From IMG/VR virus record IMGVR_UViG_2565956603_000007: a stretch of DNA of 4,485 nucleotides; one strand, given 5' to 3'. The notes under the pieces are model-generated. The model searched no databases. It was not told the origin of the DNA and was given only the letters and a program-made list of their open reading frames with translations. A program made the translations under genes and the position numbers. Of the stretch, positions 668-4,485 are shown piece by piece (position 1 is the first letter of the stretch; every line of letters starts with the position of its first letter). This DNA comes from a virus (Duplodnaviria > Heunggongvirae > Uroviricota > Caudoviricetes).

Positions 668-699
668 AAAAAACAACAGGCACCCCGGAGGATGCCTGT
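668..699 (-). terminator. Predicted rho-independent terminator on the minus (tail-gene coding) strand, between I and J
   Basis: Minus-strand read: ACAGGCATCC-TCCG-GGGTGCCTGT (about 10-bp stem including one G-U pair, 4-nt loop) followed by TGTTTTTT. It ends about 44 nt upstream of the J GTG start. Confidence 0.55.
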
Positions 700-736: not shown

Positions 737-764
737 TTCACAAACTGACTGTGGCGCGTATAAT
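737..764 (+). promoter_or_regulatory. Sigma70-like promoter on the plus strand: -35 TTCACA (737..742), 16-nt spacer, -10 TATAAT (759..764)
   Basis: Perfect consensus -10 hexamer TATAAT and a 5/6 match to TTGACA at 16-nt spacing, inside an AT-rich intergenic island. A second TTCACA copy sits 8 nt upstream (729..734). Predicted transcription start near 771. Confidence 0.45.
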
Positions 765-770
765 TTCTCT

Positions 771-868
771 GCGTTAATTTTTTTGTCGTGACATAAGAAT
801 AATTCCTTACACTTAATCTTCGTAACTCTCCCGCAGTTCCTGTCCGCGATCACTGCGGGATTTTTTTA
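771..868 (+). ncRNA. Candidate small non-coding RNA (about 95 nt) transcribed convergently to the tail genes, from predicted promoter to intrinsic terminator
   Basis: The promoter at 737..764 is followed by an approximately 95-nt segment with no ATG on the plus strand, ending in a strong intrinsic terminator (829..868). No ORF of meaningful size on either strand across 625..874. Confidence 0.3.
829..868 (+). terminator. Predicted rho-independent terminator on the plus strand
   Basis: TCCCGCAGT (829..837) pairs perfectly with ACTGCGGGA (852..860), a 9-bp GC-rich stem with a 14-nt loop, followed by TTTTTTT (861..867) then ATTCTTTTT. The T-tract is on the plus strand only, so it acts for rightward transcription. 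Confidence 0.6.
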
Positions 869-874
869 TTCTTT

Positions 875-1555
875 TTACCCCTGCCGCCCGATAACCACGA
901 CCTTTCCGCCCCCGCCTTCATCACGGGTGCTGATGTCCTGGGATATACGGCGGGAGCCAACCAGCATTTCCCCGTAAGGCACCGGCATCGGGTTCCCCTG
1001 GGCAATCATGTTATCCAGCGAGGAAAAGTACGTGTTCTGTCTGCCGTTATCCGTTGCGCGGTAATCCGGTGTTTTTGCCTTCGGGGCCAGCATCTGGGCC
1101 ACACCGCCCAGTATCATGCTGGCCCCCAGTGAAAACAGCATCGTGGTGGCAGAAAAACCGCCGGCACTCAGGGCTGTACCCCATAACGCCATCGAGGCAC
1201 CGGCAGTGAAGAAAGAGCCCACGATGGCTGCCGCCCCCAGCACAATCTGCAGTCCACCCTTTCCGGCCCCGGCCAGTCGCGGCACAATATGGATGACCGT
1301 TCCCTCACCCAGCTGTTCGTGAAGACGGGCGTACACCGCCTCCGGTGCCGTGTCATCACCGGCAATACGTATCTGGTACCAGCCTTCGTTCATCTGACGG
1401 CGAAAGCCCGGCATCTGCATCGACAGGGCGCGAATGGCTTCCGCTGCCGTGTTCACATACAGGCTGAGGCGGCGGCCAAATCGTTGTAAATCCCCGTAAA
1501 GGCGGATGCGTGCCAGTGGCGGTGACGCCAGACTGAATGCGTTCGTCGTTGCCAT
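875..1555 (-). CDS. I: Tail tip assembly protein I (gpI-like), 226 aa
   Basis: ORF-track protein MATTNAFSLASPPLARIRLYGDLQRFGRRL...; recognisable similarity to lambda gpI as I recall it (RICLYGDLQRFGRR, IHIVPR, LGAAAI.GSFFTAGA, NTYFSSLDNM.AQGN). TAA stop at 877..875. Shine-Dalgarno GGGAGAGG upstream of the ATG at 1555. Overlaps the 3' end of K by 103 nt, as in lambda. Confidence 0.92.
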   Translation of the reverse strand: MATTNAFSLASPPLARIRLYGDLQRFGRRLSLYVNTAAEAIRALSMQMPGFRRQMNEGWYQIRIAGDDTAPEAVYARLHEQLGEGTVIHIVPRLAGAGKGGLQIVLGAAAIVGSFFTAGASMALWGTALSAGGFSATTMLFSLGASMILGGVAQMLAPKAKTPDYRATDNGRQNTYFSSLDNMIAQGNPMPVPYGEMLVGSRRISQDISTRDEGGGGKVVVIGRQG

Positions 1556-2196
1556 TTTTCGGAATACCTCTCCCGTTTACTCAGTTGTTCAGGAATATGG
1601 TGCAGCAGCTCGCCGTCACCACAGTAAACGGCGGCATGATTCGGCACCGATGATCCAAAGCAGCACAGCAGCACATCGCCTGCCTGTGCAGAGGACGGAG
1701 ACACCCGGCAAAAGCCGTTTTCCGCCAGGTTGTCCAGGTACAGGTTCTGGCCGTTGCGCCACCAGTCATCCTCGCGATGAAAATCCGGCATCTCAATCCC
1801 CGCCAGATGGTAAGCATCCCGGAACAGCGTGTAACAGTCCGTCACCCCGTGCTCAAAGCGCCGTCCCGTCAGATGTGGCACACAGCGGAATTTGTGAATG
1901 TCACCCCGGCAGACCAGCCACCAGGGCAGTGCGCTTTTTATCTGCAGCCGCCGGTCAGCCTCGCTCAGCCAGGGCAGCCCACCGGGATGACTGTGGACCA
2001 GTGCCACAATCTCCCCCTGCATCTCTGCCCGCAGCCAGTCTTCCGGTGCGATACGAAAATACGCCTCCGGCTCCGCGGAAATATTCACACAAGGGATATA
2101 CCGCTCCCCCTCCGGCGTGCTTATCACGAAGCCGCACGACTCCGCAGGCGCACACCGCCGGGCATGTGCCAGAATCGCTGATTCAGTCTGTGTCAT
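1453..2196 (-). CDS. K: Tail tip assembly protein K (gpK-like), JAB/MPN + NlpC/P60 two-domain protein; proposed 247-aa form starting at ATG 2196
   Basis: In-frame part of ORF 1453..2457 beginning MTQTESAILAHARRCAPAESCGFVISTPEGERY... JAMM-type motif HSHPGGLPWLSEAD (HxHx7Sx2D) at residues 68-81 (plus 1954..1995). NlpC/P60-like Cys in DCYTLF (C121, plus 1834..1836) with downstream His residues (NHAAVY, ELLHH). The ATG at 2196 is 10 nt after the L stop; no strong Shine-Dalgarno, so the start is less certain than the gene call. Confidence 0.85.
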   Translation of the reverse strand: MTQTESAILAHARRCAPAESCGFVISTPEGERYIPCVNISAEPEAYFRIAPEDWLRAEMQGEIVALVHSHPGGLPWLSEADRRLQIKSALPWWLVCRGDIHKFRCVPHLTGRRFEHGVTDCYTLFRDAYHLAGIEMPDFHREDDWWRNGQNLYLDNLAENGFCRVSPSSAQAGDVLLCCFGSSVPNHAAVYCGDGELLHHIPEQLSKRERYSEKWQRRTHSVWRHRHWHASAFTGIYNDLAAASACM

Positions 2197-2206
2197 AAAC
2201 CGGGAT

Positions 2207-2905
2207 TTACTGCGAAAGTTTATTAATGGAAAGGAAACCGCCAAAATTGCCGACATTCCTGCGCAGTTCACACCCGCGCATGCACTTGCTGCATCTGTCC
2301 TTACGGATATCCGTGGTGGGTTTATCGAACTCATCCGCCACAGCCCCGCCCGTGTAACCACACTCATCAGAGCGGTAGGTCCACATACAGGTGTTCGCCA
2401 GCATGATACGACCGGGAAACAGCGCCCCGTCCGTCTCGGTCGGTGTGGCCAGCACAAACGAGGCCGTCATGGCTGTCAGCTGCGACATCTGCTCCACCAC
2501 CCAGCGGTCACTCAGCTCCTGCTCCGGGTCCGCCTCCGGATTGCCCGCAACGAAATTCACCGCATCCAGAAAACGGGCATACACCCGGCGGCGGACCACC
2601 GTGGCCCCCACCAGACTCTGCAGGTCTTCTGCCATCCCGGTGACCAGACCGAACAGATTGGACACCGTCAGTGACGGGCGGGCACTGCTGCCCTTTCCGT
2701 TCATCTCAAAGTCACTGCCGTCAATCGGGTATGCCTGATACTTACGCCCCTGCCAGGTCACCGGCTCCCCTTTTTCATTCAGCTCATTACAGAAAAAATA
2801 CCGCTCACCGCCCTGTACCGTCAGGTCGATTTCCCAGAGTACCACCCGCGGTGACGGCTCTGATTTAACCGACTCGTTCAGACTTTCTTCGTGAATATCC
2901 TGCAT
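2207..2905 (-). CDS. L: Tail tip protein L (gpL-like), 232 aa
   Basis: ORF-track protein MQDIHEESLNESVKSEPSPRVVLWEIDLTVQGGERYFFCNELNEKGEPVTWQGR... ending ...NVGNFGGFLSINKLSQ, matching lambda gpL as I recall it. TAA stop at 2209..2207. Start ATG 2905..2903 overlaps the M stop by 1 nt (TGATG). Confidence 0.93.
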   Translation of the reverse strand: MQDIHEESLNESVKSEPSPRVVLWEIDLTVQGGERYFFCNELNEKGEPVTWQGRKYQAYPIDGSDFEMNGKGSSARPSLTVSNLFGLVTGMAEDLQSLVGATVVRRRVYARFLDAVNFVAGNPEADPEQELSDRWVVEQMSQLTAMTASFVLATPTETDGALFPGRIMLANTCMWTYRSDECGYTGGAVADEFDKPTTDIRKDRCSKCMRGCELRRNVGNFGGFLSINKLSQ

Positions 2906-3234
2906 CAGTTCACCACCTGCTTAAACTCCGCGCTGAACTCAACGCGCAACATCCCGACCCGCGCAGACCACCCGGCACAGGTCACCTTTATCTGCCGGTA
3001 TGCATAGGGTGGCTTCCACAAAAATGCCTTCCAGCCCCCGTGCTCTGCCAGGAACGCTTCCAGATGCCGGGCCTCCTCCCAGGTCACGGAAAGCGTCACC
3101 CTGTATGTTTTCAGGTCAGCATTCAGCCCTGCCGCCATACGCTGTGAGTACCCGTCACCAAAACGCACTTCACGCACCGATGGCTGCGAGTTCACCTCCA
3201 TATCCGGCTTCACTTTCCAGCGAAAGGTTTTCAT
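2905..3234 (-). CDS. M: Tail tip protein M (gpM-like), 109 aa
   Basis: ORF-track protein MKTFRWKVKPDMEVNSQPSVREVRFGDGYSQRMAAGLNADLKTYRVTLSV...RVGMLRVEFSAEFKQVVN, matching lambda gpM as I recall it. Start ATG overlaps the H stop as ATGA (plus 3231..3234 = tcat). Confidence 0.93.
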   Translation of the reverse strand: MKTFRWKVKPDMEVNSQPSVREVRFGDGYSQRMAAGLNADLKTYRVTLSVTWEEARHLEAFLAEHGGWKAFLWKPPYAYRQIKVTCAGWSARVGMLRVEFSAEFKQVVN

Positions 3235-4485
3235 CGACCGCTCCCTGATAACAGACCGCCATCACGCAACTGCAGCCGGAGTTCATCCTGTGCCCCCTTG
3301 CGGGCCATGTCATACACCGCCTTCATCAGCTGCGACCCCGCCTGTCCGTTGATACCGTCGTTCTGAATCACCACGTGATTGTTCTGATTAAAATTAATGC
3401 CTTCGGCCCGCCGCATCTGCGCCGGACTTCCGGCAGCACCCACATACCCCCCTTCCGCATAGCCCCGCATCAGGCGGTACAGGTTCCCGACACCAATCCG
3501 GCTGGTTGCCTCCTTCGTGAAGACAAACTCCCCGCGGTGGACAATCCCCGCTGGCTCATATTTGCCACCGGTTCCCGTAAATCCCCCGGTCGCGAAATGG
3601 AAGTTCGCCGCCGCAGCCTGAATGGCCGTCCCCGTGGAGGCAGACGCACCACCACCGAAAGCACCGCCAATGGCGCTGCCGATACGCCCGACTATCCCCA
3701 CCATCGCCTGCTTCAGAAAAATCTCTGTCAGCATGGACAGCACGGAACGGGTGAAGCTGCGCCAGTTCTGCTCACTGCCGGTCAGCATCGCCGCCATATT
3801 CTGTGCAATACCATCAAAGGTCTGCGTGGCAGCACTTTTAACCTGCGACATACTGTCCGTGGCACTCTCTTTCCACTCGCTCCAGCCGGACCTGAGGCCT
3901 GCCATCCAGTTCCCGCGAAGCAGGTCTTCAGCCGCCCAGGTCTTTTTCTGCTCTGACATGACGTTATTCAGCGCCAGCGGATTATCGCCATACTGTTCCT
4001 TCAGGCGCTGTTCTGTGGCTTCCCGTTCTGCCTGCCGGTCAGTCAGCCCCCGGCTTTTCGCATCAATGGCGGCCCGTTTTGCCCGTTGCTGCTGTGCGAA
4101 TTTATCCGCCTGCTGCGCCAGCGCGTTCAGGCGCTCCTGATACGTAACCTTGTCGCCAAGTGCAGCCAGCTGGCGTTTGTACTCCAGCGTCTCGTCTTTA
4201 TGCGCCAGCAGGGATTTCTCCTGTGCGGACAGCTGGCGACGTTGTGCCGCCTCCTCCAGTACCGCGAACTGACTTTCCGCCTTCCACAAATCCCGGCGCT
4301 GCTGGCTGATTTTCTCATTTGCTCCGGCATGCTTCTCCAACGTCCGGAGTTCAGCCTGAAGCGTCAGCAGGGCAGCATGAGCACTGTCTTCCTGACGATC
4401 GCCCGCAGACACCTTCACGCCGGACTGTTTCGGCTTTTTCAGCGTCGCTTCATAATCCTTTTTCGCCGCCGCCATCAGCGTGTTG
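3231..4485 (-). CDS. H: Tail tape measure protein H (gpH-like), C-terminal portion of at least 414 codons; 5' end lies beyond the window
   Basis: Long minus-strand ORF open to the window edge (track lists it from an internal Met at 4475). Sits immediately upstream of M with ATGA coupling, as lambda H does. Composition is typical of tape measure proteins: Ala/Gln/Arg/Glu-rich helical region followed by a Gly-rich hydrophobic segment (GSAIGGAFGGGASASTGTAIQAAAANFHFATGGFTGTGG). Confidence 0.85.
   Translation of the reverse strand, partial: NTLMAAAKKDYEATLKKPKQSGVKVSAGDRQEDSAHAALLTLQAELRTLEKHAGANEKISQQRRDLWKAESQFAVLEEAAQRRQLSAQEKSLLAHKDETLEYKRQLAALGDKVTYQERLNALAQQADKFAQQQRAKRAAIDAKSRGLTDRQAEREATEQRLKEQYGDNPLALNNVMSEQKKTWAAEDLLRGNWMAGLRSGWSEWKESATDSMSQVKSAATQTFDGIAQNMAAMLTGSEQNWRSFTRSVLSMLTEIFLKQAMVGIVGRIGSAIGGAFGGGASASTGTAIQAAAANFHFATGGFTGTGGKYEPAGIVHRGEFVFTKEATSRIGVGNLYRLMRGYAEGGYVGAAGSPAQMRRAEGINFNQNNHVVIQNDGINGQAGSQLMKAVYDMARKGAQDELRLQLRDGGLLSGSGR

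What the first reader, a model, noticed from the sequence alone, without database searches (positions are those of the whole stretch)
875..1555. I protein has a ubiquitin-like N-terminal domain with a Gly-Gly site, then a hydrophobic Gly/Ala-rich tail; it pairs with the JAB/NlpC protein K
The I sequence shows a compact N-terminal region (about residues 15-93, RIRLYGDLQRF...TVIHIVPR) followed by LAGAGKGG, then a long hydrophobic Gly/Ala-rich stretch (LQIVLGAAAIVGSFFTAGASMALWGTALSAGGFSATTMLFSLGASMILGGVAQMLAP). As I recall, comparative-genomics work (Iyer, Burroughs and Aravind) proposed that lambda-type I proteins carry a ubiquitin-like beta-grasp domain processed or conjugated by the JAB and NlpC/P60 domains of the neighbouring K protein. 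The sequence here fits that architecture. The biochemical role of this ubiquitin-like pair in tail-tip assembly remains poorly characterised.
Basis: partly seen in the sequence, partly recalled or inferred. Interest (0 to 1): 0.45.

Follow-up and report, generated by a model that had tools for sequence, protein, structure and literature searches.

The report
Lambda-type tail protein I ubiquitin-like domain
This is the ordinary tail-tip protein I of a lambda-like E. coli prophage, made with a removable ubiquitin-like N-terminal domain next to its JAB/NlpC peptidase partner K; this arrangement was predicted in 2006 and is now reported to be confirmed by experiment, so the finding is correct but not new.

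Summary

Iyer, Burroughs and Aravind predicted it in 2006. [quoted passage not shown] Lambda and F-pyocin structures show only the C-terminal part in mature particles.

Two points need correcting:
- The "Gly-Gly" at 100-101 is not the conserved feature. G100 is Gly in only 28-40% of distant relatives. P92 and G96 are 95-100% conserved and position 97 is mostly Ala/Ser. G96-A97 aligns with the terminal Gly-Gly of MoaD, so cleavage is more likely there.
- The hydrophobic stretch is not the tail of the protein. It is a predicted helical hairpin followed by a conserved 69-residue plug domain.

In passing: the I-J spacer carries a homolog of the validated sRNA PasB, which is not annotated. RefSeq also annotates I too short, which removes two strands of the ubiquitin-like domain.

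The parts
875..1555 (-). Gene I, tail tip assembly / plug protein, 226 aa plus stop codon (TAA 875-877). ATG at 1553-1555 with the RBS GGGAGAGG upstream.
   Evidence: Pfam PF06805 at E=3e-16. About 74% identical to lambda gpI over its full length, E=1.9e-94.
1517..1555 (-). I residues 1-13, a poorly conserved and disordered N-terminal leader.
   Evidence: Gapped in 82-87% of distant homologs. Mean pLDDT 55-60 for the first ten residues.
1268..1516 (-). I residues 14-96, a ubiquitin-like beta-grasp domain of the MoaD/ThiS/SAMP type, ending at the invariant G96.
1265..1270 (-). G96-A97, the conserved small-residue pair at the end of the beta-grasp. This is my inferred site, or immediate neighbour, of the JAB cleavage.
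   Evidence: G96 is 95% (77 representatives) and 79/79 (viral loci). Position 97 is Ala 74% / Ser 10% and Ala 61 / Ser 18 of 79. P92 is 97% and 79/79. hhalign places G96 on MoaD G80, so A97 falls on G81 (weak, E=0.003). pLDDT drops below 50 from residue 97.
1253..1258 (-).
   Evidence: G101 is 82% and 74/79. G100 is only 40% (31% gaps) and 22/79. Lambda gpI is reported as resolved from residue 101 onward in the closed tail (PMC11101478).
1244..1279 (-). I residues 93-104 (RLAGAGKGGLQI), the flexible linker between the ubiquitin-like domain and the first hydrophobic helix.
   Evidence: No secondary structure in either model. pLDDT is below 50 for residues 97-103 in the domain model and 97-99 in the full-length model.
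1085..1252 (-). I residues 102-157, a hydrophobic Gly/Ala-rich segment predicted to form two helices (105-130 and 137-156). It corresponds to helices H1/H2 of lambda gpI.
   Evidence: Hydropathy and composition. AF2 helices at low confidence. G107, G144 and G151 are invariant. The lambda structural description is in PMC11101478.
878..1084 (-). I residues 158-226, the conserved C-terminal domain (TAPI-C). In lambda this forms the trimeric plug inside the tail tip and binds gpJ and the C-terminus of gpH.
   Evidence: Matches the 90-residue gpI chain of PDB 9e7m at E=9e-39. Conserved F177, N182, Q186, G187, P191, Y194, G195, G200, S205. Lambda structures.
1453..2196 (-). Gene K, 247 aa plus stop codon, a two-domain peptidase (JAB + NlpC/P60).
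   Evidence: Pfam PF14464 and PF00877. Coordinates verified.
1873..2196 (-). K residues 1-108, the JAB/JAMM metalloprotease domain. Catalytic E19 is at 2140-2142; H68-S-H70-x7-S78-x2-D81 is at 1954-1995.
   Evidence: Motif found. All five residues are invariant wherever aligned in 75 distant homologs. The profile matches prokaryotic MPN proteins 2kks and 2kcq and Pyrococcus JAMM1 5lda/5ld9.
1456..1872 (-). K residues 109-247, the NlpC/P60 (C40) cysteine peptidase domain, with C121 (1834-1836), H187 (1636-1638) and H199 (1600-1602).
   Evidence: Pfam. C121, H187, H199 and H200 are 75/75. The profile matches MepS/Spr, CwlO and LytE.
1453..1555 (-). The 103-nt overlap between the 3' end of K and the 5' end of I, in different reading frames. 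It encodes strands beta1-beta2 of the ubiquitin-like domain.

Best explanation
Gene I encodes the tail-tip plug protein of a lambda-like siphophage, made as a precursor with three parts: (1) an N-terminal MoaD/SAMP-type ubiquitin-like beta-grasp domain (residues 14-96); (2) a hydrophobic two-helix segment (102-157); and (3) a C-terminal plug domain (158-226). Parts 2 and 3 stay in the virion. In lambda they form a trimer that closes the tail-tip lumen and holds the C-terminus of the tape-measure protein, and the helices are proposed to insert into the host outer membrane at infection. The ubiquitin-like domain is a temporary assembly module. The JAB (JAMM zinc protease) domain of K, encoded immediately upstream, cuts it off once I has joined the tip complex, so that assembly proceeds in the right order. 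K itself is not part of the virion.

Shown here: the fold, the domain order, intact and invariant catalytic residues in K, the strict pairing of the two genes in a distant clade, and the conserved boundary motif P92-x3-G96-[A/S]97. Taken from the literature: that cleavage happens, that it depends on K, and its timing. Inferred by me: the scissile bond lies at or next to G96-A97, the positional equivalent of the C-terminal Gly-Gly of MoaD, SAMP and ubiquitin, rather than after G100-G101.
For: Identity: Pfam and PDB sequence matches.

Enzyme: the JAMM motif E19/H68/H70/S78/D81 and the NlpC triad C121/H187/H199 are present and invariant in 75 homologs whose overall identity falls to 32%. The JAB profile matches the archaeal JAMM1 entries.

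Pairing: in 80 IMG/VR loci of a distant clade, 79/79 complete I genes have Ubl and TAPI-C in one ORF, and 75/75 loci with enough upstream DNA have JAB and NlpC in one upstream ORF.

[quoted passage not shown] Lambda virion structures show gpI only from residue 101 or 134/135 onward. The N-terminus of the F-pyocin homolog PA0640 is absent from mature particles but present in stalled tips.

Site: G96 is 95-100% conserved and position 97 is mostly Ala/Ser, against 28-40% for G100. hhalign puts G96 on MoaD G80. The model becomes disordered from residue 97.
Against: No experiment was done on this protein, so cleavage is inferred from lambda (about 74% identical) and from a conference summary rather than a full paper. 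The cleavage site is not published in anything I could read. The hhalign match that sets the register is weak (E=0.003, probability 10%). G101 is itself well conserved (82-94%), so cleavage there is not excluded. PA0640 expressed alone in E. coli lost its N-terminus to unknown host proteases, so the linker is cleavable without K.
Confidence: 0.85

Rival explanations
1. The overall mechanism is the same, but the JAB domain cuts after G100-G101 (LAGAGKGG|L), as the first reader proposed by analogy with the ubiquitin diglycine.
For: A literal Gly-Gly is present here and in lambda. G101 is conserved in 82% and 74/79 of distant homologs. The whole of 97-103 is disordered and accessible.
Against: G100 is Gly in only 40% and 22/79, and is replaced by Ala, Val, Thr, Asn or Phe. 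The invariant glycine is G96, four residues after the invariant P92, which is the position where MoaD, SAMP and ubiquitin carry their terminal Gly-Gly (compare ubiquitin HLVLRLRGG, from my own knowledge, with HIVPRLAGA here). Lambda gpI is reported as modelled from residue 101, which would place G101 in the mature protein.
Confidence: 0.3
2. The NlpC/P60 cysteine peptidase domain of K, not the JAB domain, removes the ubiquitin-like domain, or the two domains cut at two different sites in the I linker.
For: The NlpC/P60 triad is as strictly invariant as the JAMM site (75/75), yet K is not found in virions, so it needs an intracellular substrate. Iyer et al. left open processing by either peptidase domain. 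Different lambda reconstructions see gpI from residue 101 or from 134/135.
Against: The conference report attributes cleavage to the 'deubiquitinating domain' of gpK. From general knowledge of the family, JAMM enzymes are the ones that pair with MoaD/SAMP-type domains, and the K profile does match the Pyrococcus JAMM1 entries. The closest solved relatives of the NlpC domain are peptidoglycan endopeptidases. The difference between 101 and 134 is more simply explained by disorder.
Confidence: 0.1
3. The ubiquitin-like domain acts as a true modifier or sulfur carrier: once released, it is activated and conjugated to a target, or thiocarboxylated, like SAMP, Urm1, MoaD or ThiS.
For: The nearest folds are exactly these carriers and modifiers. 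Cleavage would expose a small-residue C-terminus.
Against: The window contains no E1-like, E2-like or rhodanese gene; it holds only H, M, L, K, I and J. The terminal pair is G-[A/S] rather than G-G. Neither the literature I read nor the loci I examined point to conjugation.
Confidence: 0.03
4. The N-terminal domain is only a solubility tag or chaperone for the hydrophobic helices and is trimmed non-specifically by host proteases. The adjacency of K is unrelated to it.
For: PA0640 expressed alone in E. coli lost its N-terminal region to unknown host proteases. The linker is disordered.
Against: Strict co-occurrence and gene order (75/75), together with invariant JAMM residues across distant clades. 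An invariant P92/G96 motif would not be needed for non-specific trimming. K-dependent cleavage has been reported.
Confidence: 0.04

Closest known systems
Bacteriophage lambda gpI (tail tip assembly protein I, TAPI; PDB 8iyk, 8iyl, 8k35, 8xcg, 9e7m) with gpK
   Same: About 74% identical over the full length, with the same residue numbering up to 102. The three-part architecture, the gene order H-M-L-K-I-J and the K domains are the same. From memory, lambda also has a 103-nt K/I overlap; I did not check this.
   Different: There are ordinary sequence differences, such as AGKGG here against AKSGG in lambda. The I-J spacer is about 250 nt and carries a PasB-like sRNA, whereas I recall lambda having only about 60 nt there.
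F-type pyocin PA0640 (plug protein) with PA0639 (gpK homolog), Pseudomonas aeruginosa
   Same: It has the same family architecture and belongs to the same family (PDB 25vf_9, a putative phage tail assembly protein that I take to be the F-pyocin plug, and 9l9p_A match the I profile at about 1e-50). Its N-terminal region is removed in mature particles but present in stalled tips. Mutants lacking the K homolog make no tips.
   Different: It is a tailocin rather than a phage, and the sequences are distant. The protease responsible has not been identified there.
Archaeal SAMP1/SAMP2 with JAMM1 desampylase, and bacterial MoaD/ThiS/CysO with JAB partners (Mec+, QbsD)
   Different: Those proteins are free-standing modifiers or sulfur carriers that work with an E1-like enzyme and end in Gly-Gly. 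Here the domain is an N-terminal pro-domain of a structural protein, ends in Gly-Ala/Ser, and has no E1.
Eukaryotic ubiquitin-ribosomal protein fusions (Ub-eL40, Ub-eS31)
   Same: This is a working analogy from my own knowledge, not a claim of membership. In both, an N-terminal ubiquitin-fold domain is made as part of a structural protein and removed by a deubiquitinase as the protein enters a large assembly.
   Different: There is no specific evolutionary link. The proteases belong to different families and the cleavage motif is a canonical Gly-Gly.
Phage T5 baseplate hub protein pb3 plug domain
   Same: According to PMC10721106, a trimeric plug occupies the same position as the gpI tripod and closes the tube.
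   Different: In T5 the plug is an insertion inside the hub protein. No ubiquitin-like pro-domain or K-type peptidase is described for it in the text I read.

Membership tests
Lambda tail assembly protein I (TAPI; Pfam PF06805 plus the TAPI-C domain) | Sequence match to the family model above its curated threshold | tested here: met
   PF06805 scores 60.1 bits against a cut-off of 23.8, E=3e-16, covering residues 15-97.
Lambda tail assembly protein I (TAPI; Pfam PF06805 plus the TAPI-C domain) | Full-length similarity to lambda gpI, including the C-terminal plug domain | tested here: met
   E=1.9e-94 over residues 1-224 against 8iyk_I. The C-terminal 87 residues match 9e7m at E=9e-39.
Lambda tail assembly protein I (TAPI; Pfam PF06805 plus the TAPI-C domain) | Position between the K (JAB/NlpC) gene and the J (central fibre) gene in a tail-tip operon | tested here: met
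   The order H-M-L-K-I-J on the minus strand is confirmed by Pfam for all six genes.
Ubiquitin-like beta-grasp fold, ThiS/MoaD/SAMP/Urm1 clade | Beta-grasp fold | tested here: met
Ubiquitin-like beta-grasp fold, ThiS/MoaD/SAMP/Urm1 clade | Conserved glycine at the C-terminal end of the domain | tested here: met
   G96 is 95% and 79/79 conserved, four residues after the invariant P92. It aligns with MoaD G80.
Ubiquitin-like beta-grasp fold, ThiS/MoaD/SAMP/Urm1 clade | Free C-terminal Gly-Gly and a cognate E1-like activating enzyme (the defining features of a modifier or sulfur carrier) | tested here: not met
   The domain is internal to a 226-aa protein, and the equivalent pair is G-[A/S]. No E1-like gene is present in the window. 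It therefore shares the fold but is not a modifier or carrier.
JAMM/MPN+ metalloprotease (K, N-terminal domain) | Catalytic signature E...H-x-H-x7-S-x2-D | tested here: met
   E19 and H68-S-H70-PGGLPWL-S78-EA-D81 are present and invariant in the distant homologs. Pfam PF14464 matches at E=5e-16.
JAMM/MPN+ metalloprotease (K, N-terminal domain) | Zinc-dependent cleavage after the C-terminal small residues of a ubiquitin-like domain | not testable with these tools
   Reported for lambda gpK in a conference summary. Modelling the complex was not possible.
NlpC/P60 (C40) cysteine peptidase (K, C-terminal domain) | Cys-His-His/polar catalytic triad in a papain-like fold | tested here: met
   C121, H187 and H199 (and H200) are 75/75 conserved. 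Pfam PF00877 matches at E=1.5e-10. The profile matches MepS/Spr. The fold itself was not modelled.
NlpC/P60 (C40) cysteine peptidase (K, C-terminal domain) | A known substrate | not tested
   The substrate is unknown. K is absent from virions.

The most novel reading that the evidence does not exclude
The NlpC/P60 domain of K, whose catalytic triad is as invariant as the JAMM site although K never enters the virion, is a second assembly protease with its own substrate. The obvious candidate is the tape-measure protein H, whose cleavage to H* in a C-terminal Gly-rich region has no known protease (PMC12617516). K would then be a dual maturation protease that processes both partners of the I-H plug complex. 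A smaller novel point is that the JAB cleavage motif is P-x3-G-[A/S] at residues 92-97 rather than a Gly-Gly.
Probability: 0.12. Interest if true: 0.55.

Novelty: already known. Interest (0 to 1): 0.15.

Why it matters
It adds little as a discovery. The I/K ubiquitin-like-domain and JAB pair of lambdoid phages has been in the literature since 2006, and by several recent accounts its function (K-dependent removal of the domain as an assembly checkpoint) has now been worked out.

The useful outputs here are practical:
- The fold prediction is now verified for this protein with current methods.
- The conserved processing motif is G96-[A/S]97 after P92, not the eye-catching Gly-Gly. This matters for anyone designing cleavage-site mutants or annotating the mature protein.
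- RefSeq's 193-aa annotation of this gene cuts two strands off the domain.
- The I-J spacer carries an unannotated homolog of the validated sRNA PasB.

Tried and rejected
1. Sequence-only searches of the PDB with the N-terminal domain and with a family profile found no MoaD, ThiS or ubiquitin. The relationship is visible only at the fold level or with weak profile-profile scores.

2. The search for related loci with a 33-sequence alignment of the C-terminal domain failed because the alignment was too divergent. A tighter 8-sequence subset worked.

3. The co-occurrence test was meant to ask whether I proteins lacking the ubiquitin-like domain go with K proteins lacking JAB. No such variants occurred in the 80 loci: every complete locus had both. 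The result shows strict pairing but has no discriminating contrast.

5. The 'natural K-I fusions' among the homologs (P0003, P0014, P0075, P0086, P0091, P0119) turned out to be deletion or rearrangement products of decayed prophages. They lack the JAB Glu and part of strand beta1, so they are unusable.

6. A Foldseek search of the full-length model against the PDB did not retrieve the lambda gpI chains, so I could not check independently which residues are modelled in the deposits.

7. Rfam found nothing in the window. The spacer sRNA was identified only through a Northern probe sequence in a supplementary table.

8. AgvB/AsxR-type anti-sRNAs were considered for the spacer and dropped. Rfam, which according to the Pas preprint holds AgvB and AsxR families, reported no match in the window, and the spacer RNA turned out to be PasB.

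Full report
**What the window is.** The 4485-base window is the tail-tip part of a lambda-like siphophage or prophage of Escherichia coli, read on the minus strand. It holds the C-terminal part of the tape-measure gene H (3231-4485), M (2905-3234), L (2207-2905), K (1453-2196), I (875-1555) and the start of J (GTG at 622-624, running off the window). All six products match the expected Pfam families. Over the whole window the closest phage records listed are 89-92% identical, including PhiR5_1 and many Stx-converting phages. A 401-base piece around the I-J junction is 100% identical in many E. coli chromosomes.

**Checking the observation.** The compact N-terminal region is residues 14-93, LAGAGKGG is 94-101, and the hydrophobic Gly/Ala-rich stretch is 102-157 (12 Ala, 9 Gly and 8 Leu in 56 residues). 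The protein is about 74% identical to lambda gpI over its whole length (E=1.9e-94), with the same numbering up to residue 102. Pfam's Lambda_tail_I model covers residues 15-97 (E=3e-16). One thing is missing from the finding: the hydrophobic stretch is not the end of the protein. A conserved 69-residue C-terminal domain follows (158-226, the 'TAPI-C' of Iyer et al.). It matches the gpI chain of PDB 9e7m (E=9e-39) and contains most of the invariant residues of the family.

I collected relatives from the 5.8-billion-protein set and from an exhaustive search of 1.84 billion cluster representatives, which gave 3,261 representatives at E<=0.001. I aligned 81 of them with residues 1-103 and predicted the structure. 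The model is confident: mean pLDDT is 84.6, and 87-96 over residues 11-95. The order of elements is strand 14-19, short helix 21-26, strand 29-33, helix 37-47, helix 51-57, strand 60-64, helix 71-78, strand 87-92, and residues 97-103 are disordered. A second, full-length run reproduced the domain at pLDDT 90-97.

**The partner K.** K (247 aa) has a Prok-JAB domain and an NlpC/P60 domain. The complete JAMM signature is present: E19 in ESCG, then H68-S-H70-x7-S78-x2-D81. So is the NlpC/P60 catalytic Cys121 in TDCY. A profile containing K matches prokaryotic MPN proteins (2kks, 2kcq) and Pyrococcus JAMM1 (5lda/5ld9). From my own knowledge, JAMM1 is the enzyme that trims SAMP-type ubiquitin-like proteins. 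The NlpC half of K matches MepS/Spr, CwlO and LytE.

To test the pairing beyond E. coli, I fetched 80 IMG/VR loci using only the C-terminal plug domain of a distant clade as the query. I then classified their ORFs with locally built HMMs. Every complete I-like ORF (79/79) carried the ubiquitin-like domain and the plug domain together. Every locus with enough upstream DNA (75/75) had JAB and NlpC/P60 in one ORF directly upstream. In those 75 K homologs, which are 32-84% identical to this K, E19, H68, H70, S78, D81, C121, H187 and H199 are invariant wherever aligned. Both active sites are therefore under strong selection. Because no clade lacking either domain turned up, this shows strict coupling but not a presence/absence correlation.

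**What is already known about the mechanism.** Iyer et al. (2006) predicted that the JAB domain releases the ubiquitin-like domain by cutting at its C-terminal glycine. Lambda cryo-EM studies find gpI in the virion as a trimer inside the tip. There it acts as a plug under the C-terminal coiled coil of gpH and binds gpJ by strand addition. Only residues 101-223, 134-222 or 135-223 are seen, the N-terminal domain never is, and gpK is absent from virions (PMC11101478, PMC12617516, PMC10721106). The two hydrophobic helices are proposed to enter the host outer membrane when the tip opens.

[quoted passage not shown] A 2026 preprint on F-type pyocin shows the same for the homolog PA0640. Its N-terminal region is missing from mature particles but present in assembly-stalled tips, and deleting the gpK homolog PA0639 gives tubes without tips. 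I found no full paper giving the lambda cleavage site.

**Where I differ: the Gly-Gly.** Two independent samples agree. The first is 77 full-length cluster representatives, 32-60% identical to this protein. The second is 79 I-like ORFs from viral contigs, 32-64% identical.

| Position | 77 representatives | 79 viral ORFs |
|---|---|---|
| P92 | 97% | 79/79 |
| G96 | 95% | 79/79 |
| 97 | Ala 74%, Ser 10% | Ala 61, Ser 18 |
| G100 | 40%, with 31% gaps | 22/79 |
| G101 | 82% | 74/79 |

Where position 100 is not Gly, it is Ala, Val, Thr, Asn or Phe. The conserved motif is therefore P-x3-G-[A/S], with a second, less conserved glycine four or five residues later, and not a diglycine.

G96 sits four residues after the last strand of the beta-grasp. 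A profile-profile alignment against E. coli MoaD (sequence verified against 1fm0_D) and P. furiosus MoaD places HIVPRLAG96 on AFFPPVTG80, so G96-A97 corresponds to the terminal G80-G81. That alignment is weak on its own (E=0.003), but it is consistent with the fold match and the strand register. The same register holds by eye against ubiquitin (HLVLRLRGG, from my own knowledge). In both models, order ends at about residue 96. The statement that lambda gpI is resolved 'from position 101 onward' would put G101 inside the mature protein. I therefore think the JAB domain cuts at or next to G96-A97, with roughly 55% confidence. Cleavage after G101 gets about 30%. Only an N-terminal determination will settle it. 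The apparent natural K-I fusions are deletion artefacts.

**The rest of the protein.** The full-length model predicts helices at 105-130 and 137-156 with low confidence, and leaves 158-226 unfolded. This is as expected for a segment that folds only against gpJ and gpH in the assembled tip. G107, G144 and G151 are invariant, which suits tightly packed helices.

**Open point.** The NlpC/P60 domain is as conserved as the JAB domain, yet K is not carried into the virion and no substrate is known. One speculative reading is that it is the unidentified protease that converts gpH to gpH*, or that it makes a second cut in I. I give this about 12%; nothing here tests it.

**Side observations.** The I-J spacer is about 250 nt. 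On the strand opposite the tail genes it has a near-consensus promoter (TTCACA-16-TATAAT, 737-764) and an intrinsic terminator (843-859 plus a T-run). This unit is homologous to PasB, an 83-nt Hfq-dependent sRNA validated by Northern blot and RIL-seq in prophage PP6 of EPEC E2348/69. The published probe matches the terminator stem, and the mapped gene lies in the homologous I-J spacer (PMC8550237 Table S6). Rfam returned no match for it, and RefSeq does not annotate it. The spacer recurs in about 150 Stx-converting and lambdoid phage records. Separately, RefSeq annotates I as 193 aa starting at GTG 1454-1456. That start would remove strands beta1-beta2. The 226-aa form is supported by the conservation of G21, L23 and G27 in distant relatives and by the confident model of that region.

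**Verdict.** Interest is low. The only additions are a corrected processing motif, the missing third domain, and two annotation notes.

Noticed in passing
window 737-868, + strand (promoter 737-764; RNA about 786-867; terminator 843-859 plus T-run): The roughly 250-nt I-J spacer carries, antisense to the tail operon, a homolog of PasB. PasB is an 83-nt Hfq-dependent sRNA validated by Northern blot and RIL-seq in prophage PP6 of EPEC E2348/69, where it also lies between I and J. The promoter hexamers and the terminator stem are conserved. It has no Rfam match and is not annotated in RefSeq.
   Followed up: yes
window 676-699, - strand: A strong terminator-like hairpin (10 pairs, then TGTTTTTTGG) lies in the operon direction between I and J, upstream of the J ribosome-binding site. 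The stem sequence is largely the same in E2348/69, while the loop differs. What it does inside a late operon is unclear. It may be read through under Q antitermination, insulate the PasB promoter, or end a separate transcript.
   Followed up: partly
window 1454-1456 versus 1553-1555, - strand: RefSeq/PGAP annotates gene I as 193 aa starting at a GTG that overlaps the K stop codon by 4 nt. That start removes residues 1-33, including strands beta1 and beta2 of the ubiquitin-like domain. The 226-aa form from the ATG at 1553-1555 is supported by conservation of G21, L23 and G27 and by a pLDDT of about 95. Many database homologs of 190-210 aa probably share this start-site error.
   Followed up: partly
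window 1453-1555, - strand: K and I overlap by 103 nt in different reading frames. The last 33 codons of K (which include a conserved 'NDL' tail motif) and the first 34 codons of I (leader plus beta1-beta2) share the same DNA. In the distant clade examined, the K stop and the first codon of the ubiquitin-like domain typically abut, with a median distance of -1 nt.
   Followed up: partly
proteins P0003, P0014, P0075, P0086, P0091, P0119 (homologs, not in the window): Several database 'fusion' proteins combine NlpC/P60 and I domains. Their junctions show that they are in-frame deletions or rearrangements of decayed E. coli prophages, not designed K-I fusions.
   Followed up: yes
window 3231-4485, - strand (H, C-terminal part; Gly-rich region about residues 270-315 of the 414-aa ORF): The C-terminal part of the tape-measure protein contains a Gly/Ala-rich stretch (GSAIGGAFGGGASASTGT...TGGFTGTGG). 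According to the literature, lambda gpH is cut to gpH* in a region of this kind by an unidentified protease. The strictly conserved NlpC/P60 domain of K is a candidate, but this was not tested.
   Followed up: no
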